Shown here: piece after piece, positions 4,550-55,395 of the stretch
Layout: every line of letters starts with the position of its first letter
How positions within the stretch are numbered: the stretch's first letter is position 1
The notes under the pieces: model-generated
What the model was told of the DNA's origin: nothing
Database searches by the model: none
The model's input: the letters and a program-made list of their open reading frames with translations, nothing else
Translations under genes and position numbers: made by a program
Assembly (NCBI GenBank): GCA_045121635.1
Contig: JBGVGJ010000058.1
Location: 48,294 to 112,293 of the forward strand
Length of the DNA stretch: 64,000 nt
Origin: Alloprevotella sp.
Lineage (GTDB): Bacteria; Bacteroidota; Bacteroidia; Bacteroidales; Bacteroidaceae
Reading direction: 5' to 3'

Positions 4550-4915
4550 ATGAAACAAAAGAATTTGACGAAGGCAGAATTGCAATTGATGAACATACTT
4601 TGGGCGAAAGGTGAAGCCACGGTGAGTGAAATTATTGAGGCAATGGGCGAACCGAAACCTGCTTATACTACGGTGCTCACCGTGATGCAAGTATTGACAC
4701 GCAAGGAAGTAGTATTCCCCGAGCGCCGAGGCAAGGCACACGTATTCCGCCCCCTACTCTCGCGCGAAGAATACATCAACGGCTTCATGCACGAAACGCG
4801 CGACACGCTCTTCCACGGTTCGCTCCGCAACTTCCTCTCTTATTTCGTAAAGAGCGAGAAGTTGAGCAAGGAAGAACTTCAGGAAATTCTTGAAGAAATC
4901 AATGGCGAGAAGTAA
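4550..4915 (+). CDS. BlaI/MecI/CopY-family transcriptional repressor
   Basis: 121-aa winged-helix protein whose N-terminus MKQKNLTKAELQLMNILWAKGEATVSEIIEAM is typical of the penicillinase-repressor family. A BlaR1-family gene follows directly. Confidence 0.8.
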   Translation: MKQKNLTKAELQLMNILWAKGEATVSEIIEAMGEPKPAYTTVLTVMQVLTRKEVVFPERRGKAHVFRPLLSREEYINGFMHETRDTLFHGSLRNFLSYFVKSEKLSKEELQEILEEINGEK

Positions 4916-4966
4916 ACGGAATTACACAAGAGATATTAAACCCATTCAACGAATTTCTCCCGCTCC

Positions 4967-6761: not shown

Positions 6762-7469
6762 ATGAAGAGATTTCTGTTCCCCCTTATAACCCTTCTTCTC
6801 ATCACGTCATGCGGATGCGGTCCTAAGTATTACATTGTGGCCGAGCGCGATGAACAAGGCAAAATCCTCTCCGTAAGAGAAATGACGGAGGCAGAAAAAG
6901 CGGAGACAATGCGTCTGAAAAAGAACGCACTGACTTACGACACCATCCCCAACTTCCGCCTTGCCACACTCAAAAAGCCTGCCGAGAACTACGACCCCGA
7001 GGATTACAACACCTTTGCCGTCTATACCCATCCGCACACCGTGGCACCCTTACAGAGCCCCCAAGGCACTGACAATTTAGCGATATGGTGCACCAAGGAT
7101 GCCACCTACCTCGCTATCGTGGACGAGCAAATGTGGACCCGCAGATACCATCAAACATCCAAAGATTTTCACCTCCGCGATAGTCAAACAGGCAAAACCT
7201 ACCCCATCATCAAACTCTTGGGTTACCCCTTGGATCAGGTCTTTTGGATAGAAGGTGTGCCGGGCGAATGGCGTTGTCGCCTCCTTGTCTTCCCACCTCT
7301 CACGAAGCAATGCACAACCATTGACATCATCAACGACGGTCCTATGCCCAAGCATGTAAAGGGCACTACAGGTTGGGGCATTCGCAAATCTCTTTACAAA
7401 ATTCCCGTCAGCACACTTCAAGCACAACAACACATCGCCACGTTTAAGGAAACCGTGGTCGTGGAATAA
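6762..7469 (+). CDS. hypothetical lipoprotein, co-transcribed with the BlaI/BlaR1 pair
   Basis: 13-nt gap after the BlaR1-like gene. Signal peptide plus lipobox (LLITSCGCG). No recognisable domain. Confidence 0.6.
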   Translation: MKRFLFPLITLLLITSCGCGPKYYIVAERDEQGKILSVREMTEAEKAETMRLKKNALTYDTIPNFRLATLKKPAENYDPEDYNTFAVYTHPHTVAPLQSPQGTDNLAIWCTKDATYLAIVDEQMWTRRYHQTSKDFHLRDSQTGKTYPIIKLLGYPLDQVFWIEGVPGEWRCRLLVFPPLTKQCTTIDIINDGPMPKHVKGTTGWGIRKSLYKIPVSTLQAQQHIATFKETVVVE

Positions 7470-8107: not shown

Positions 8108-8143
8108 CCTTAAAACCTTATAACCTCAGAACCTCATAACCTA
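8108..8143. repeat. family-1 repeat, short copy A
   Basis: ccttaaaaccttataacctcagaacctcataacc, upstream of the outer-membrane protein gene. Confidence 0.5.
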
Positions 8144-23398: not shown

Positions 23399-23560
23399 AT
23401 GAAACGCATTGCATATGCCCAAGTGGAATTGCCTGATGGCACACTACTCAAGCGCCAAGTCGTAGAATTCTCCGAAGGAAAGTACCTCCGCCACTACCCT
23501 CTCACCGAGGAACTCCCCTTTACGGAGTGGCGAAATGAAAGATATGAAGTAAGGTTGTGA
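23399..23560 (+). CDS. small hypothetical protein (53 aa), below the ORF-track cutoff
   Basis: ATG 3 nt after the DUF4296 stop. MKRIAYAQVELPDGTLLKRQVVEFSEGKYLRHYPLTEELPFTEWRNERYEVRL has a balanced composition. Its stop lies inside a family-1 repeat. Confidence 0.3.
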   Translation: MKRIAYAQVELPDGTLLKRQVVEFSEGKYLRHYPLTEELPFTEWRNERYEVRL

Positions 23561-23644
23561 GGTTATAAGGTCGCTCATAGGTTTTAAGAACCATGCGACA
23601 AGAGGGAGAGTCCCTATAACCTGAAAACCTCATAACCTAAAACC
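23555..23644. repeat. family-1 palindromic intergenic repeat (AACCTCATAACC type), copy B
   Basis: gtgaggttataaggtcgc...ccctataacctgaaaacctcataacctaaaacc, directly 5' of the 23653 gene. Confidence 0.6.
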
Positions 23645-30532: not shown

Positions 30533-30990
30533 AAAGAACAGAGGAGCGATAAGCCGGGTTCTGTACCCTCAGGGCATTACGGAGGTGTAACTTCCCAGAA
30601 ACGAGGGTGCTTATCATTTATCCGCACGCACCATCACTGATGCGCTCTATCGTTCTACCCTCCGGCGCGCTTTGTTCACGAGGAACAAAATCTCGAACGG
30701 GCAATCCTCATTCGCCGGTATACATGAACTTTCAGCCTCCGATGTGCACAGCTCGTATGTCGCCACACGACTGGTGGGCTCTTACCCCACCTTCTCACCC
30801 TTACCTATGAAGCTGTCATCTTGAAAACAAGACGCGCCAAGGAGGTTATTTTCTTCTGCACGACTTAACCCTCACGGACTACTTCCCATTAAGAAGCGGA
30901 GCGCCCTATGCTGCCCGGACTTTCCTCCTGCACCACTTACATTGCGCAAGGCAACGGGATGCACGCGATAAGCAGCTCTTCTGTTCTCTA
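30533..30990 (-). ncRNA. rnpB: RNase P RNA (bacterial type A)
   Basis: The minus strand reads ...GGAGGAAAGUCCGGGCAGCAUAGGGC near the 5' end and ...ACAGAACCCGGCUUA near the 3' end; these are the universally conserved P4 strands. The P1 helix GAGAACAGAAGAGC / GCUCCUCUGUUCUU closes the molecule. ORF 30607..30810 inside it is spurious. Confidence 0.85.
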
Positions 30991-32509: not shown

Positions 32510-32557
32510 ACACTACGACCTTAAAAACTCATAACCTTAAAACCTCATAACCTTACC
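32510..32557. repeat. family-1 repeat, copy E
   Basis: ccttaaaaactcataaccttaaaacctcataaccttacccc, ending at the 32562 ATG. Confidence 0.55.
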
Positions 32558-38556: not shown

Positions 38557-38766
38557 AACTACCGCATCACTAATCTAATACATAATACATTAAGGGCTGC
38601 ACCGAATAATGAAATTGGCGCAGCCCTTGGTATGTCAGAGGGGTGGAGATTATGACGGATACAGTAGGGACGCACGGCGCGTGCGTCCTAATCCGAACTC
38701 TCTGAATATATTACAATGCTTCCCATTTGAGGACGCACGAACCGTACGTCCCTACTTATCAAGTGT

Positions 38767-44737: not shown

Positions 44738-44870
44738 GTCGTGAGGTTTTAAGGTTTTAAGGTCGCTTTGCTATGAGGGTTTGAGGCTATTCTCCGCAAG
44801 GTCCTTACGACCTGACAACCTCATAACCTGATAACCTTAACCATACGAACCTCAAACCCTTGTTGAGATT
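44738..44870. repeat. family-1 repeat, copy G (divergent region between pheS and the 44965 gene)
   Basis: gtgaggttttaaggttttaaggtcgctttgctatgagggtttgaggctattctccgcaaggtcc...caacctcataacctgataacc. It is homologous, in inverted orientation, to copy H. Confidence 0.6.
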
Positions 44871-46898: not shown

Positions 46899-47044
46899 TG
46901 AGGTTATTAGGTTTTAAGGTTTTAAGGACCTTGCGGAGAATACTCATAAACTTACAACCTCAAAGCAAAGCGACCTCACAACCTCAAACCTCATAACCTT
47001 ACAACCTCAAAGCGAAGCGACCTCACAACCTCATAACCTCATTT
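46899..47044. repeat. family-1 repeat, copy H (longest copy)
   Basis: gtgaggttattaggttttaaggttttaaggaccttgcggagaatactcataaacttacaacctcaaagcaaagcgacctcacaacctcaaacctcataaccttacaacctcaaagcgaagcgacctcacaacctcataacctcatttccc, ending at the 47048 ATG. Confidence 0.65.
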
Positions 47045-50194: not shown

Positions 50195-52540
50195 ATGAAA
50201 TACCTCTTCTCACTCCTCTTACTTGCTTCGTTGCTAACAATAGCCCCCATCCACGCTATTGCCCAAGAGCAAACCACCACACAAAAGGGGTTGTTCACCG
50301 TTACCCAGAAGGGCGAAAATTATTTCTTTGAAATTCCCGATTCGCTCGTTGGTCGCCTGTTCCTCGCAACGGTGCGCTACACAAACACTCCCGCCAACAC
50401 CTCAAAATATGGCGGTGAGCAAGCCAATCAGCAGTCTGTTTATTGGGAAAAGGCACCAGGCAACAAACTCTTGCTCCGTGCAAATATGTTTTTTGCCGAC
50501 ACCGATTCTACCGACAACATCAGTCGCTCGGTGTATGTCTCTTCTTCCGACCCCATCATCGGTGCCTTTAAGATTGAAGGCACTTCTGAGCGTGGCTATA
50601 AAATTAAGGTGAATTCCTTCTTTGAGGACGATGATCCCGCTCTCGGACTCAACCGTAGCGCAAAGACTACCCTGGGCGTTTCAAGCCTTCAGCGCGATCT
50701 TTCCTACATTGAGAGCATCAAGAGTTACCCCACAAACGTGGAGGTGCGCCTCGTAAAAACTTACTATGCCTCAAGCGGAAGCATCAGTGCGCAACGTACG
50801 GGAAATGCTACGATTGGTTTGAACATCTCCTTTGTGCTTCTTCCCAAAGAACCCATGCACCAACGCCTTTTCGACCCTCGCGTGGGATACTTCGCCAATC
50901 GTTGCGTGCCCTTCACGGATGACCAGCAAACGGTTAGCACACAAACGTTCATTACACGCTATCGCCTCGAACCCAAGGACTCACTTGCGGCCGACTCTAT
51001 GCGTCGCGGATTCCTTGTTGAACCCAAGAAACCCATCGTTTACTACATCGACCCCGCAACTCCCAAGCAATGGATACCCTACCTCATTCAGGGCGTAAAC
51101 GATTGGCAAGTGGCCTTCGAAAAAGCAGGTTTCAAGAATGCCATTATCGGTAAGGAATGGCCCAATGACCCCAGCATGTCGCTCGAAGACGCACGCTTTA
51201 GCGTCATCCGCTACCTTGCTTCTAACATTGAGAATGCCTACGGACCTAATGTTCATGATCCACGCTCAGGAGAGATTATCGAGAGTCACGTATGCTGGTA
51301 CCACAACGTGATGACCTTACTCCACGACTGGTATATGATTCAAGCGGGCACACTTGACGAAGCCGCGCGCAAGATGAAGTTTGACACCGAACTCATGGGT
51401 GAACTCATCCGCTTCGTGTCCAGTCATGAAGTTGGCCACTCCATGGGTTTGCGCCACAATTTCGGAGCCTCAAGTCTCTCGCCCGTAGATAGTCTGCGCA
51501 ATAAGGAATGGGTGGAAAAGCATGGGCACACCGCTTCCATCATGGACTATGCGCGCTTCAACTACGTTGCTCAACCCGAAGATAGCATCTCACGCAAGGG
51601 ACTCTTCCCCAGAATCAACGATTACGATATCTGGGCCATCCAATGGGGTTACACTCCCATGTTCGACGCTTACGATGCCGAAAGCGACCATTGGGAACTC
51701 GAGAAACTCGTTCAGGCAAACCTTCCCCACAATCCCCGACTCTGGTTTGGTGATGGCGAAACAAACAAGACCAATGACCCACGTTGTCAAACGGAAGACC
51801 TTGGCGACGACGCGATGAAGGCAAGCCATTACGGCATTCTCAACCTCAAGCTTGTCATTAAGAATCTCCCTGAGTGGACCTACGAAAGCAATGACATTTA
51901 TCACACAAACTTAAAGCGTGGTCTTGGAAATGTCTTCAACCAATACAGACGTTATATGGGGCATGTGGCACGTAATATCGGCGGTGTGCAATACAATTAC
52001 CGCACCGTGGATGAACCTGGTCAGGTTTACACTCCCACATCACGCGAAAAGCAACTCCGCGCCCTCGATTTCATTGATGAGCACGTCTTTACCTGTCCCT
52101 CATGGCTCATTGACGAACCCTTCGTAGCACGGCTCTATCCCCGTCCTGCCGACCTCACAGATAAGTATTGCGAAGATGTTTTGCACAACTACATTTTCGA
52201 CATTAGTGGTTGGATTGTGGGAGATGCCTTCAACGAAGAACTTCCTTTTGAAGACTATCTTGAAGAAGTTGACAAGCGCCTCTTCCGTGGCTTGGACATG
52301 GGCACAACCCTTGACGCTCATCGCCGACTTATGCAAACTACGGCGGTTGTTCAGCTCAACGATGCCTACCGTCGCTTCTCGGAATACGCAACTGATAGTC
52401 CACAACGCCCCTACTTCATGGATTATTACGAACGCCTTCACCGCCGACTCCTCAATGCGCGCGCATCGGACAAGGACACACGCCTCCACTACGCCAACCT
52501 TGCCGACCTTATCACTAAGGCGAAAGACGCGTTGAAGTAA
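50195..52540 (+). CDS. secreted zinc-dependent metalloprotease (DUF4953/DUF5117-type)
   Basis: Signal peptide, then HEVGHSMGLRHNF as the zincin motif. 781 aa. Confidence 0.75.
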   Translation: MKYLFSLLLLASLLTIAPIHAIAQEQTTTQKGLFTVTQKGENYFFEIPDSLVGRLFLATVRYTNTPANTSKYGGEQANQQSVYWEKAPGNKLLLRANMFFADTDSTDNISRSVYVSSSDPIIGAFKIEGTSERGYKIKVNSFFEDDDPALGLNRSAKTTLGVSSLQRDLSYIESIKSYPTNVEVRLVKTYYASSGSISAQRTGNATIGLNISFVLLPKEPMHQRLFDPRVGYFANRCVPFTDDQQTVSTQTFITRYRLEPKDSLAADSMRRGFLVEPKKPIVYYIDPATPKQWIPYLIQGVNDWQVAFEKAGFKNAIIGKEWPNDPSMSLEDARFSVIRYLASNIENAYGPNVHDPRSGEIIESHVCWYHNVMTLLHDWYMIQAGTLDEAARKMKFDTELMGELIRFVSSHEVGHSMGLRHNFGASSLSPVDSLRNKEWVEKHGHTASIMDYARFNYVAQPEDSISRKGLFPRINDYDIWAIQWGYTPMFDAYDAESDHWELEKLVQANLPHNPRLWFGDGETNKTNDPRCQTEDLGDDAMKASHYGILNLKLVIKNLPEWTYESNDIYHTNLKRGLGNVFNQYRRYMGHVARNIGGVQYNYRTVDEPGQVYTPTSREKQLRALDFIDEHVFTCPSWLIDEPFVARLYPRPADLTDKYCEDVLHNYIFDISGWIVGDAFNEELPFEDYLEEVDKRLFRGLDMGTTLDAHRRLMQTTAVVQLNDAYRRFSEYATDSPQRPYFMDYYERLHRRLLNARASDKDTRLHYANLADLITKAKDALK

Positions 52541-52556
52541 ATACTCATATAACTCA

Positions 52557-52608
52557 CGATTGGGTGTGTCAAAAAGCAAATTGACACACCCAATTTCTTT
52601 TTTTTGCA
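52557..52608 (+). terminator. strong rho-independent terminator after the metalloprotease gene
   Basis: cgattgggtgtgtcaaaaagcaaattgacacacccaat followed by ttctttttttt. Confidence 0.7.
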
Positions 52609-52782
52609 AGAAGAGCTTCGTGTAAATTACAAGGCTTTTTCACAGAATAATTTCTCATCTTCTACCAATTTGTCAAACACATATTTCAAAGCAAACGGAT
52701 AGGACGAAAAACTTTCAGAGAAATACTATTTTTCCGCGTAAATCTTTTTGTATCAACAATAAAGGGCGTAACTTTGCATCGC

Positions 52783-53004
52783 TTAACACAGCTAAACTAG
52801 ACCTGACTAAGCTTAAATTTAGGACGGTTCCAGTTTATTTAAAGAGGGGAACCCGGACATTTAAAGAATGATTAAGTAAAGATTATTAGATTAGTGAATG
52901 AATCCGCCCTGCTTTGCTTCACATAGGCAATTGTAGTGCACCGAAATGAGTAAAAACTTGTTTCAAAGTCCGAGAGGCGAAAGCCCCTCTTTTTTTGTTT
53001 TTAG
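52783..53004 (+). ncRNA. candidate small RNA (promoter-to-terminator unit without ORF; possibly 6S-like)
   Basis: A Bacteroidetes-type promoter sits upstream, with TTTG at 52747..52750 and TAACTTTG at 52769..52776. About 215 nt follow with no ORF. A GC-rich GAAA-tetraloop hairpin gaggcGAAAgcccctc plus ttttttt lies at 52972..53004. A second hairpin with a T-run lies at 53020..53046. Confidence 0.4.
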
Positions 53005-53479
53005 GGCTATTGCGTCCGAACAGAAACGCATTTTTTTACGACGCCCACCTCCCCTGCATTTTTCCTCATTTTTCACTCAAAACTTTAACACATATTAACA
53101 TTCGCATAGCTTAAAATCGCATCAAAATCTATTCTTGGAAGCACAATTTGTACGCTCGGCGCAAAAATAAGTTACCTTGAAAAAACGATAATACTCATTT
53201 TTGCCCCAAAATAAGTAACCTTGTGAACGAAAAAAAGTGAAGATAACCCCGATTCCAGGGACTATCTCCACTTCCGTAGTACAAAGATACATCATTTCAG
53301 AGCGAAAAGCAAATGCGTTAACACTTGTTAACGCTATAATTATTTTACTTTTTTCTTCATTTTTGATATTTAATCTTCCAATACAGACAAAAAGAAAACC
53401 CACAGGAACACCTGTGGGCTCTAAAACGTGTCTATGCTCGGCTATCGCTCAGCTAACACGTCTTTCGCTTGGCTGTAAA

Positions 53480-53659
53480 TTAAGCAGCAACTGTGTCAGC
53501 AGCAACTGTGTCAGCAGCAACTGAATCAACAACTGTAGTATCAACTACTGTAGTGTCGATTGAATCAGCAGCAACTTCAGCAGCGGGAGTAGCGTTACCA
53601 CCGCAAGAAGCGAAAGAAACTGCAGCGAAAGCAGCGAACATGAAAACCAACTTCTTCAT
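53480..53659 (-). CDS. small repetitive lipoprotein (59 aa), below the ORF-track cutoff
   Basis: The minus strand encodes MKKLVFMFAAFAAVSFASCGGNATPAAEVAADSIDTTVVDTTVVDSVAADTVAADTVAA, with a signal peptide, a lipobox FASC and DTVAA-type repeats. A minus-strand terminator (cccacaggtgttcctgtggg followed by ttttcttttt) lies at 53389..53421. Confidence 0.55.
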   Translation of the reverse strand: MKKLVFMFAAFAAVSFASCGGNATPAAEVAADSIDTTVVDTTVVDSVAADTVAADTVAA

Positions 53660-53934
53660 TTTCTTTGTTAATTTTTAAAAGTGATACAATTAATTGTCCT
53701 ATTAAAACGGTGCAAAATTACAGACTTTTTCCATTCCGAAAAAAATATCCATTAAAAAAATATACTTTTTTGCAGAAAATTTAACAATTTAACATTCTAA
53801 GTACCTGTTTTGTTATGCTGATTTTACAAATAAATAAAACATCTTCAAGACATTACGAAAAATAGAACAAAAATTTCGTGGGATAAAATACGGGGTGTGT
53901 CTGGCTTTTGTTGTAAATTTGTAGCAAATAAGGA

Positions 53935-54036
53935 TATAAGGTTATAGGTTGTAGGTCGCTACACTTTAAGGGATAAGACTATGCGGCTTGATTCCACACC
54001 TTATAACCTCATAACCTCATAACCTCATAACCTTAC
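53935..54036. repeat. family-1 repeat, copy I
   Basis: aaggatataaggttataggttgtaggtcgctacactttaag...ccacaccttataacctcataacctcataacctcataacc, upstream of mtaB. Confidence 0.6.
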
Positions 54037-54057
54037 ATATACTATATAATATATTTT

Positions 54058-55395
54058 GTGAATTCTCCTTTATTAAATAAGAAAGCAGCCTTTCACACAT
54101 TAGGTTGCAAACTCAATTTCGCGGAAACCTCCTCACTTCAAGACGCCCTGCGCCTGCGTGGCATGCAGATGGCAGAGAAGGGCGAGGTAGCGGACTTGTG
54201 CATCATTAATACCTGTAGTGTGACCGACACTGCCGACTCCAAGTGCCGCCAAACGATTCACCGCTTTACGCGCAAACACCCCGGTGCGTTCGTTGTGGTG
54301 ATGGGGTGTTACGCCCAGTTGCAACCCGATACGATTGCGGCATTTGAGGGTGTGGACCTAGTGGTGGGCATGGAGCATAAGGGCGAGGTGATCCGCCTGA
54401 TCGAAGAGCGTTGGGCAAAGAAGGGAACGCTGGCGCAGGGCGAGGCGTGCCACGAAGCGATTGCCGTACCTACGCGCGAGATTTCGACCTTCGTGCCCTC
54501 ATGTTCGCACGGCGACCGCACGCGCTACTTCCTCAAGGTTCAGGATGGTTGCAACTATTACTGCACCTACTGCACCATCCCCATGGCACGTGGGAAGAGC
54601 AGAAACGGAACGATTGAAAGCCTCGTTAGTCAAGCACAAGAAGTGGCGACTGAGGGAGGCAAGGAAATTGTTATCACGGGTGTGAACATCGGTGACTTTG
54701 GCCGCTCCACGGGCGAGACGTTCTTTGACCTCGTAAAGGCTTTGGATGCCGTGGAAGGCATTGAGCGCTACCGCATTTCGTCGATCGAACCCAACTTGCT
54801 CACTACGGAGATTATTGACTTCTGCGCGCAGTCGAAGAAGTTTATGCCCCATTTCCACATTCCCCTTCAAAGTGGTAGCGATGCGGTACTTAAGTTGATG
54901 CGCCGCCGCTATGACACCGCCCTTTTTGCTGAAAGAATCAACTACATCAAGCAGGTAATGCCCGATGCCTTTATCGGGGTGGACGTCATCGTGGGGATGC
55001 GTGGCGAGACGGACGAACTGTTTGAGGAGGCGTACAATTTTATTAAGGGGCTTGAGATTTCGCAACTCCATGTGTTCTCTTATTCCGAACGCCCCGGCAC
55101 ACGCGCACTTGAAATTCCCTACAAAGTGGATGCACAAACCAAGCACGAGCGCAGCCAACGCCTTATCGAACTCTCAGAAGAGAAGCGCAAGGCACACTAT
55201 GCCGCTCACATCGGCACAACCCGCCCCGTGCTTTGGGAGCATGCCAAGAACGGCGCGCCATTGAGCGGATTTACAGATAATTATATTAAAGTGACGCAAG
55301 CAGAAGGCTGCGAAGCGACAGACAATACGCTCTCTGTAGTGCGCCTCGGCGAATTTACTGAAGACCAAGAAACTTTATGGGCAACACAAGCATGA
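54058..55395 (+). CDS. mtaB: radical-SAM methylthiotransferase (MiaB/RimO/MtaB family, MtaB-like)
   Basis: N-terminal MTTase Cys triad (GCKLN...NTCSVT), the radical SAM CxxxCxxC (CNYYCTYCTIP) and a TRAM-like C-terminus. Apparent GTG start. Confidence 0.75.
   Translation: MNSPLLNKKAAFHTLGCKLNFAETSSLQDALRLRGMQMAEKGEVADLCIINTCSVTDTADSKCRQTIHRFTRKHPGAFVVVMGCYAQLQPDTIAAFEGVDLVVGMEHKGEVIRLIEERWAKKGTLAQGEACHEAIAVPTREISTFVPSCSHGDRTRYFLKVQDGCNYYCTYCTIPMARGKSRNGTIESLVSQAQEVATEGGKEIVITGVNIGDFGRSTGETFFDLVKALDAVEGIERYRISSIEPNLLTTEIIDFCAQSKKFMPHFHIPLQSGSDAVLKLMRRRYDTALFAERINYIKQVMPDAFIGVDVIVGMRGETDELFEEAYNFIKGLEISQLHVFSYSERPGTRALEIPYKVDAQTKHERSQRLIELSEEKRKAHYAAHIGTTRPVLWEHAKNGAPLSGFTDNYIKVTQAEGCEATDNTLSVVRLGEFTEDQETLWATQA

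What the first reader, a model, noticed from the sequence alone, without database searches (positions are those of the whole stretch)
52783..53004. Candidate small RNA: consensus Bacteroidetes promoter to GAAA-tetraloop terminator, about 215 nt, no ORF
The previous transcript ends at a strong terminator (52557-52608). A -33 TTTG (52747-50) and a -7 TAACTTTG (52769-76) are spaced 18 nt apart, matching the Bacteroides sigma-A promoter consensus. About 200 nt downstream there is a GC-rich hairpin gaggcGAAAgcccctc followed by seven T residues, then a second hairpin with a T-run (53020-53046). No ORF longer than about 30 codons lies between. The 5' segment aagaggggaacccggac can pair with the 3' segment gtccgagaggc...cccctc, which would close a roughly 150-nt domain. 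The length and closing-stem architecture are compatible with 6S RNA, which has no conserved primary sequence, so the identity remains open.
Basis: partly seen in the sequence, partly recalled or inferred. Interest (0 to 1): 0.55.

Follow-up and report, generated by a model that had tools for sequence, protein, structure and literature searches.

The report
New clade-specific Alloprevotella small RNA
This is very probably a real, previously undescribed non-coding RNA gene of about 215 nt, found only in a narrow group of uncultured Alloprevotella-like gut bacteria; it is an ordinary kind of bacterial small RNA, it is not 6S RNA, and its target is unknown.

Summary
A Bacteroidetes-type promoter (TTTG 52747-50, TAACTTTG 52769-76) is followed about 215 nt later by a GNRA-capped hairpin and a run of seven T (52972-52996). 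No conserved ORF lies between them.

Twelve related sequences carry the same unit just downstream of the same Met-zincin gene. They come from MAGs, metagenome contigs and ENA/Logan assemblies. The -7 box, an AAAGAGGGG element, a 38-nt invariant block inside a C-free stretch (52859-52903) and the terminator never change. Two internal hairpins change sequence but keep pairing, with 6 pairs showing double changes. Third-codon positions of the neighbouring gene are only 64-79% identical, so the RNA is under selection.

No Rfam 15 family matches, including 6S, Bacteroidales-1 (the Bacteroidales 6S) and 6S-Flavo. The fold is multi-branched, not rod-like, so the 6S suggestion is not supported. DNA downstream of the terminator differs between lineages, which argues against a cis-leader.

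The best reading is a clade-restricted trans-acting sRNA whose unstructured invariant core is the functional interface, for pairing or protein binding. Two unusual details stand out. A 21-22-nt module carrying AAAGAGGGG varies from 1 to 4 tandem copies between strains. This element can pair either locally or with the 3' strand of the terminator. No target was found and no expression data were available.

The parts
52666..52691 (+). Conserved upstream box (cAATTTGtCAAACaCATATTTCAAAg; TTTCAAA invariant), about 90-115 nt upstream of the start site. Candidate binding site for a transcription regulator (inferred).
   Evidence: Alignment of 11 upstream regions (also visible). It stays conserved while the surrounding intergenic DNA cannot be aligned.
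52747..52750 (+). -33 element TTTG
   Evidence: Present in the window-type and L002-type sequences; degenerate (TTTA/GTTG) in the L004 and L006 lineages.
52769..52776 (+). -7 element TAACTTTG (TAnnTTTG consensus)
   Evidence: Invariant in all homologues whose promoter region was recovered.
52781..52996 (+). Predicted sRNA transcript, about 215 nt. The start site is inferred at 52781-52785 and the 3' end within the T-run 52990-52998.
   Evidence: Promoter and terminator positions. nhmmer and covariance-model matches in 12 related loci. No Rfam family matches.
52793..52810 (+). Conserved 5' segment UAAACUAGACCUGACUAA, mostly unpaired in predictions. Possible second interaction site.
   Evidence: Alignments; per-sequence folds. 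Not conserved in the L004 lineage.
52826..52853 (+). Local hairpin P0 (GGUUCC 52826-31 : GGAACC 48-53) with AAAGAG in its loop. Alternative to, or pseudoknotted with, the long-range helix.
   Evidence: Per-lineage folds. In 3 of 4 lineages the native upstream/spacer combination is 2-6.6 kcal/mol more stable than cross-lineage swaps; the hairpin is absent in the L006 lineage.
52841..52849 (+). Invariant AAAGAGGGG, the 5' strand of the possible long-range helix P1. Part of the 21-22-nt module that is tandemly expanded in some strains.
   Evidence: Invariant in all sequences. Perfect complement of 52984-92, duplex -13.7 kcal/mol. Tandem copies: 4.5 in L002 and 2.4 in L004; 2 in L085/L087 and 1 in L082.
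52859..52903 (+). C-free core (UUUAAAGAAUGAUUAAGUAAAGAUUAUUAGAUUAGUGAAUGAAU). 52863-52900 is invariant apart from one 2-nt insertion in L006. Proposed functional interface, either a seed or a protein-binding platform.
   Evidence: Invariant columns. Longest C-free run on the + strand of the window. Three TAAAGA and three GATTA motifs fall within 52840-52893. Third-codon identity of the neighbouring gene is only 64-79%.
52906..52939 (+). Hairpin P2
   Evidence: Forms in all sequences despite different sequences. 3 pairs show changes on both sides.
52943..52964 (+). Hairpin P3
   Evidence: Forms in all sequences. 3 pairs show changes on both sides.
52972..52996 (+). Intrinsic terminator: GAGAGGC-GAAA-GCCCCUC plus U7. 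CCCCUCUUU (52984-92) is also the 3' strand of P1.
   Evidence: Hairpin -8.8 kcal/mol. Invariant except the loop, GAAA to GUAA, which remains a GNRA tetraloop.

Best explanation
This is an independently transcribed, non-coding small RNA gene of about 215 nt, specific to a narrow Alloprevotella-like clade and lying just downstream of a DUF4953 Met-zincin gene.

Shown: a Bacteroidetes sigma-A-type promoter and an intrinsic terminator bracket the unit, and both are retained in relatives. Two internal hairpins (P2, P3) are maintained by compensatory changes. A 38-nt block within a 45-nt C-free stretch, the AAAGAGGGG element and the terminator are invariant, although neutral sites nearby have diverged by 20-35%.

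Inferred: the RNA acts in trans. The hairpins and terminator would give stability. The unstructured invariant core would be the working surface, either base-pairing with A/U/C-rich mRNA segments such as translation-initiation regions or docking an RNA-binding protein, as in Bacteroides GibS/FopS with RbpB. The AAAGAGGGG element can sit in a local hairpin (P0) alongside the terminator hairpin, or pair with the 3' strand of the terminator (P1) after release. The mature RNA may therefore be bistable.
For: Promoter and terminator are in the sequence, and the promoter pattern is above chance. Homologues sit at the same locus in L001-L004, L006, L066, L081-L087. The covariance model scores them at 158-183 bits and finds nothing credible elsewhere in 803 kb. 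Covariation: 97.3% of cells are paired against 33-59% for slid partners, 6 pairs have double changes, and 0 of 500 shuffles reach the covariation score. P2 and P3 fold in every sequence. The invariant core contrasts with 64-79% third-codon identity in the adjacent gene. No ORF is conserved. No match was found in Rfam, phages or plasmids. Downstream DNA differs between lineages, so the unit ends at the terminator. The closing-stem fold is the MFE in 8 of 10 sequences, by 1.4-6.7 kcal/mol. Clade-restricted intergenic sRNAs with these promoter motifs are the norm in Prevotellaceae and Bacteroides, and they act through single-stranded seeds and RbpB.
Against: There are no expression data, so the transcript itself is unobserved. 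No target was found. Complementarity of the conserved segments to 49 start regions in the window does not exceed shuffled controls. The best neighbour-gene site is missing in L001 and L002, which do carry the sRNA. The single 14-nt perfect complement lies in a 3'UTR and is expected by chance about 0.1 times. An invariant block of about 38 nt is much longer than a typical seed. Single-strandedness of the core is predicted, not measured. Two genomes whose zincin is 94-95% identical to the window's (L005, L080) lack the RNA at this locus, so it is dispensable or located elsewhere.
Confidence: 0.6

Rival explanations
1. Protein-sequestering (sponge-type) RNA. The repeated short motifs would be multiple binding sites for an RNA-binding protein, and module copy number would tune capacity. 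The motifs are UAAAGA x3 and GAUUA x3 in the window copy, with more in strains carrying 2-4 tandem AAAGAGGGG modules.
For: 3 of the 17 TAAAGA on the + strand of the 64-kb window fall within 40 nt of this RNA. The invariant stretch is far longer than a normal seed. The same module has expanded independently in two lineages, and copy numbers of 1, 2 and 4 are seen in three closely related L002-type assemblies. RbpB of B. thetaiotaomicron binds long (41-55 nt) single-stranded conserved sRNA segments.
Against: The expansions are flanked by an 8-10-nt direct repeat (TATTAAAGA), so replication slippage alone can explain them. No protein partner is known or testable here. Most strains carry one module.
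Confidence: 0.2
2. 6S RNA or another RNA-polymerase-binding housekeeping RNA.
For: The length of about 200 nt and a possible 5'/3' closing helix.
Against: No hit to 6S, 6S-Flavo or Bacteroidales-1 at E<=10, and no Rfam family reaches its gathering score in any of 11 homologous loci. The Bacteroidales 6S is the Bacteroidales-1 RNA. The architecture is multi-branched with a conserved primary-sequence core, the opposite of 6S, which conserves structure rather than sequence. The RNA is restricted to one small clade and absent from this locus in L005 and L080, which does not fit a housekeeping RNA.
Confidence: 0.02
3. Cis-acting attenuator or riboswitch-like leader. P0 plus the terminator would give termination, and P1 (AAAGAGGGG with the 3' strand of the terminator) would give read-through into downstream sequence.
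For: There is three-strand competition among a covarying local hairpin, a weak terminator (-8.8 kcal/mol) and a stronger 9-bp alternative (-13.7 kcal/mol).
Against: Nothing conserved lies downstream on the + strand. Sequence after the T-run differs completely among lineages, and no gene follows within about 1 kb in the window. The terminator's 5' strand is adjacent to its 3' strand and so has the kinetic advantage.
Confidence: 0.05
4. mRNA for a micro-peptide, or a dual-function RNA. Candidates are the invariant AUG AUU AAG UAA mini-ORF at 52868-52879 and the 12-codon ORF from 52898.
For: The start codon of the mini-ORF has A at -3 and lies in the invariant core.
Against: The 2-nt insertion in L006 changes the frame and product (MIK* becomes MIISKDY*). 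The second ORF changes freely in sequence and length in a pattern that fits hairpin P2, not a peptide. There are no Pfam hits.
Confidence: 0.03
5. A DNA-level element, such as a recombination or integration site or a protein-binding region, rather than an RNA.
For: The DNA immediately downstream is a hot spot of lineage-specific replacement, as seen next to tRNA/tmRNA integration sites.
Against: Compensatory changes in two hairpins, strand-asymmetric composition, and a conserved promoter and GNRA-capped terminator all point to selection on a transcript. No similarity to phages or plasmids was found.
Confidence: 0.05

Closest known systems
GibS and FopS sRNAs of Bacteroides thetaiotaomicron (RbpB-associated, PMC11697453)
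   Same: Intergenic unit with a canonical Bacteroidetes sigma-A promoter and an intrinsic terminator. A long, conserved, predicted single-stranded segment serves as the likely functional surface. The organism belongs to a phylum without Hfq or ProQ.
   Different: No sequence or covariance-model similarity. About 215 nt against about 65-145 nt. Single copy in the 64-kb window and one per related locus, not a multicopy family. The conserved segment lies in the middle, between a 5' hairpin module and two 3' hairpins. Targets and protein partner are unknown.
Segatella copri intergenic sRNAs such as SrcF, 272 nt (bioRxiv 10.1101/2024.04.05.588293)
   Same: Same family of bacteria (Prevotellaceae), the same promoter type, sizes of 90-300 nt, and conservation limited to a species complex.
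   Different: Those sRNAs are reported as absent outside the Segatella complex. SrcF has transcript and phenotype data, and this RNA has none.
6S RNA / Bacteroidales-1 RNA (Rfam RF00013, RF01693, RF01685)
   Same: Similar length and a possible pairing of 5' and 3' segments.
   Different: No model match. A branched rather than rod-like fold. Conserved primary sequence. Narrow distribution.
CsrB/RsmZ-type protein-sponge RNAs
   Same: Short sequence motifs repeated along the RNA, and a variable number of repeat modules between strains.
   Different: No GGA-in-loop motifs. Bacteroidota lack CsrA. Only 1-4 modules. Protein binding is untested.

Membership tests
6S RNA (RF00013; Bacteroidales-1 RF01693; 6S-Flavo RF01685) | Match to a family covariance model | tested here: not met
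   No hit at gathering score anywhere in the window. No 6S-type hit at E<=10 in 52500-54200. No Rfam family reaches its gathering score in 11 homologous loci.
6S RNA (RF00013; Bacteroidales-1 RF01693; 6S-Flavo RF01685) | Rod-like fold of closing stem, large central bubble and apical stem, with structure conserved and sequence variable | tested here: not met
   The consensus is a multi-branch domain with two side-by-side hairpins and an invariant single-stranded block of about 38 nt.
6S RNA (RF00013; Bacteroidales-1 RF01693; 6S-Flavo RF01685) | Binds RNA polymerase holoenzyme, templates pRNA and accumulates in stationary phase | not testable with these tools
   Needs biochemistry or RNA-seq.
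Independent intergenic sRNA gene of Bacteroidota (kind, not a homology family) | Own promoter of the TTTG / TAnnTTTG type, conserved in relatives | tested here: met
   The -7 box is invariant in all homologues whose promoter region was recovered.
Independent intergenic sRNA gene of Bacteroidota (kind, not a homology family) | Intrinsic terminator at a fixed distance, conserved in relatives, with sequence unrelated beyond it | tested here: met
Independent intergenic sRNA gene of Bacteroidota (kind, not a homology family) | No conserved reading frame | tested here: met
Independent intergenic sRNA gene of Bacteroidota (kind, not a homology family) | RNA-level selection, meaning compensatory base-pair changes | tested here: met
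   6 pairs with double changes in P2 and P3; controls; per-sequence folds.
Independent intergenic sRNA gene of Bacteroidota (kind, not a homology family) | Detected transcript of the predicted size | not testable with these tools
   No transcriptome data were reachable.
Independent intergenic sRNA gene of Bacteroidota (kind, not a homology family) | Identified target or partner | tested here: inconclusive
   Only 64 kb plus the loci were searchable, and nothing rose above the shuffled controls.
GibS/FopS family (Rfam) | Sequence or structure homology to the family model | tested here: not met
   No such hit.
Cis-regulatory leader / riboswitch / attenuator | Conserved downstream gene in the same orientation under its control | tested here: not met
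   Downstream sequence and genes differ among lineages.
ToxI-like (type III TA) repeat RNA | Tandem repeat array followed by a toxin gene | tested here: not met
   Most strains have a single module and no gene follows.

The most novel reading that the evidence does not exclude
The RNA is a bistable, modular decoy. A covarying 5' hairpin plus the GNRA-capped terminator alternates with a 9-bp long-range helix between the invariant AAAGAGGGG and the 3' strand of the terminator. This switch would gate exposure of an invariant C-free platform that titrates an RNA-binding protein or another RNA. Strains would tune the switch by expanding the 21-22-nt AAAGAGGGG module from 1 to 4 copies. That would be a new regulatory RNA class for a phylum in which post-transcriptional regulators are still poorly known.
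Probability: 0.12. Interest if true: 0.55.

Novelty: new member of a known kind. Interest (0 to 1): 0.3.

Why it matters
Post-transcriptional regulation in Prevotellaceae is barely charted, and uncultured Alloprevotella-like gut bacteria have no described sRNAs. This gives a well-delimited candidate that can be looked for directly in metatranscriptomes. It has a promoter, a terminator, a covariation-supported structure and a covariance model (R1). It also gives an invariant 38-nt segment to use as a probe or as bait for target and protein-partner searches. It does not change any general picture, because clade-restricted sRNAs of this type are expected in Bacteroidota.

Tried and rejected
1. 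Rfam identity. A gathering-score scan of the whole window, an E<=10 scan of the intergenic region and a gathering-score scan of 11 homologous loci found only RNase P elsewhere in the window.

2. 6S RNA was rejected (see membership test).

3. Mobile-element origin. No match in phage or plasmid collections, and the core 20-mer is absent from viral contigs.

4. Wider family.
   - nhmmer --max and the covariance model R1 over 803 kb found no credible extra member. These searches covered syntenic loci from about 70 more distant Prevotellaceae with zincin identity of 63% or less.
   - The L077 hit (17 bits) is a gene end plus a promoter.
   - The protein search shows no intermediate relatives between 88% and 63% identity.

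5. Target prediction.
   - RNAduplex against start regions was uninformative.
   - Ungapped complementarity did not exceed shuffled controls.
   - The best neighbour-gene site, at -11 to -1 of the 247-aa ORF, is absent in L001 and L002, which carry the sRNA.
   - The 14-nt perfect complement at 38567-80 is in a 3'UTR and is near chance expectation.
   - The G-free stretch downstream (53057-53103) does not pair with the core better than average.

6. Peptide coding was rejected by a frame-shifting indel and non-conservative change.

7. A formal column-wise covariation test of hairpin P0 failed, because the register differs between lineages in the MAFFT alignment. It was replaced by a native-versus-swapped stability comparison.

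8. Literature search for the core sequence and for Alloprevotella sRNAs found nothing.

Full report
**Observation.**
- TTTG lies at 52747-50 and TAACTTTG at 52769-76, 18 nt apart.
- About 200 nt further on is GAGAGGC-GAAA-GCCCCTC (52972-89), followed by seven T. The terminator scan also lists this hairpin.
- The upstream gene (50195-52540) is a DUF5118/DUF5117/DUF4953 Met-zincin. It has its own 15-bp terminator at 52558-95.
- The full promoter pattern TTTG-N17-21-TAnnTTTG occurs 5 times in the window against 1.15 expected.
- No ORF of 30 codons or more lies within the unit. The two ORFs that cross the terminator are not conserved.
- The 'second hairpin' at 53020-46 is weak and not conserved.

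**Organism and relatives.** A genome scan with the Met-zincin protein returned 80 loci.
- The closest loci (89-95% protein identity) are MAGs named Alloprevotella sp., Prevotella sp. or Bacteroidaceae, from yak and other animal guts.
- All other loci are at 63% identity or less. The 5.8-billion-protein search shows the same gap, so the clade is isolated.
- The intergenic unit is present directly downstream of the zincin gene in L001, L002, L003, L004, L006 and L066.
- The invariant 20-mer found three metagenome contigs, L081-L083.
- Exact-protein look-ups added L084 (identical to the window), L085, L086 (cut off inside the repeat) and L087.
- L005 and L080 have 94-95% identical zincins but lack the unit within 4 kb.
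- nhmmer and covariance model R1 found no credible copy in the window outside this locus or in the distant loci.

**Evidence for a selected RNA.** The pattern of conservation is mosaic.
- Invariant in every sequence:
  - the -7 box;
  - AAAGAGGGG (52841-49);
  - a 38-nt block (52863-52900) inside a 45-nt C-free run (52859-52903), with one 2-nt insertion in L006;
  - the terminator, except GAAA to GUAA in its loop, which is still a GNRA tetraloop.
- Third-codon positions of the adjacent gene are only 64-79% identical to the window. A 38-nt invariant block across all lineages is therefore not neutral.
- Between the core and the terminator, two hairpins form in every sequence although their sequences differ. 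These are P2 (52906-39) and P3 (52943-64).
- On alignment A2, 97.3% of cells pair, against 33-59% when partners are slid. Six pairs carry changes on both sides, and 0 of 500 shuffles reach the covariation score.
- The DNA after the T-run is unrelated between lineages, so the conserved unit ends at the terminator.
- A further conserved box (52666-91, TTTCAAA invariant) lies about 100 nt upstream of the start. It may be a regulator site.

**Architecture and the closing stem.** AAAGAGGGG is a perfect 9-bp complement of CCCCUCUUU (52984-92), which is the 3' strand of the terminator plus the first three U.
- A 9-mer match of this kind in 190 nt has a chance of about 7e-4.
- With this helix enforced, the fold is the MFE in 8 of 10 sequences, by 1.4-6.7 kcal/mol. 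Both strands are invariant, so covariation cannot test it.
- Two competing local structures have some support:
  - the terminator hairpin, whose loop stays GNRA;
  - a 5' hairpin P0 (GGUUCC:GGAACC in the window). Its two strands differ between lineages but remain complementary: CGGUUUC:GAAGCCG, CGGAG:CUCCG and CUGGAGU:GCUCCGG.
- For P0, native combinations are 2-6.6 kcal/mol more stable than cross-lineage swaps in three of four lineages. P0 is absent in the L006 lineage.
- P0 and P1 cross. They are therefore either alternatives or a pseudoknot. This remains open.

**Module expansion.** The 21-22-nt unit (C)TATTAAAGAGGGG(G)CTCCG(G/C)A is tandemly repeated.
- L002 has 4.5 copies and L004 has 2.4, all 100% identical.
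- L085 and L087 have 2 copies. L082, which is otherwise nearly the same as L002, has 1.
- The unit differs between the two lineages, so the expansions are independent.
- The unit is flanked by the direct repeat TATTAAAGA, so slippage is a sufficient mutational explanation. Whether copy number matters is unknown.

**What it is not.**
- *Not in Rfam.* Rfam 15 has no match at gathering score in the window or in 11 homologous loci. Nothing relevant appears at E<=10 in the intergenic region.
- *Not 6S.* In Bacteroidales the 6S homologue is the Bacteroidales-1 RNA, which is in Rfam and does not hit. The branched fold with conserved primary sequence is unlike 6S.
- *Not a cis-leader.* Nothing conserved lies downstream.
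- *Not a peptide gene.* The L006 indel changes the only invariant mini-ORF, and the other ORFs vary as a hairpin would.
- *Not phage or plasmid DNA*.

**Most likely function.** The best-supported reading is a clade-restricted trans-acting sRNA.
- S. copri and B. thetaiotaomicron have many such RNAs. They have the same promoter type, little conservation beyond a species complex, single-stranded conserved seeds and association with the RRM protein RbpB.
- The invariant C-free core, predicted to be unstructured, is the natural candidate interface.
- Its length and its repeated UAAAGA and GAUUA motifs leave a protein-binding or sponge role open.
- Target searches in the 64-kb window and in the loci gave nothing above chance.
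- No expression data could be consulted, so the transcript remains predicted.

**Verdict.** This is a real and previously undescribed ncRNA family, of a known general kind. The 6S idea is rejected. I put the probability at about 0.85 that this is a genuine selected RNA gene, and at about 0.6 for the full statement including trans action through the core. Interest is modest (0.3). The bistable pairing and the copy-number-variable module are the only unusual features.

Noticed in passing
window 53226-53313 (- strand): A second full promoter consensus (TTTG-N20-TATCTTTG, 53313..53282) is followed at once by an 18-bp hairpin plus T7 (53275..53233; -24.2 kcal/mol, z = -5.4). This could be a minus-strand RNA of about 50 nt, convergent with the main candidate. 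The hairpin is kept, with changes, in L066, where the -7 box is weaker.
   Followed up: partly
window 8112-8142, 23552-23638, 24168, 32523-32553, 39233, 44815-44837, 46901-47039, 53931-54033: A dispersed intergenic repeat made of tandem octamers (ATAACCTC)n, often with an inverted (AGGTTAT)n partner. There are 21 matches against 0.12 expected. It looks like a REP/MITE-like element of this genome. L080 carries similar arrays downstream of the zincin gene.
   Followed up: partly
window 30534-30984 (- strand): Bacterial RNase P RNA class A (Rfam 187.5 bits), the only Rfam family found in the window.
   Followed up: no
window 53480-53659 (- strand): A 59-aa ORF with a lipoprotein-like signal (MKKLVFMFAAFAAVSFASCGG) and a C-terminal part built from 15-nt tandem repeats (AGCAGCAACTGTGTC). 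Its terminator is at 53422-53395. It is conserved in L066 and L004, with a different repeat content.
   Followed up: partly
window 38567-38580 (+ strand): A perfect 14-nt complement (TCACTAATCTAATA) of the sRNA core 52884-97. It lies between the stop codon of a small wHTH-like ORF and its terminator. It is expected about 0.1 times by chance, and its conservation in relatives could not be checked.
   Followed up: partly
window 53159-53223; L001 about 4880-4950; L003 about 6935-7005: Short direct repeats lie just downstream of the sRNA: AAATAAGTWACCTTG x2 in the window, and AATTATTAGTAAC x2 plus one inverted copy in L001 and L003. They share ATTATTAG with the sRNA core. Their meaning is unknown.
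   Followed up: no
L006 6974-7179: A tandem array (42-nt period, 4.8 copies; or 84 nt, 2.5 copies) lies about 180 nt downstream of the sRNA terminator in this lineage only. More generally, the DNA after the terminator is replaced in every lineage, which makes it a local hot spot of variation.
   Followed up: partly
L005 and L080, 6343-7400: Two genomes whose zincin genes are 94-95% identical to the window's lack the sRNA. They carry unrelated sequence instead. In L080 this includes GC-rich palindromes (cccctgaaagggg, cccagggcaacgccctggg) with no Rfam match.
   Followed up: partly
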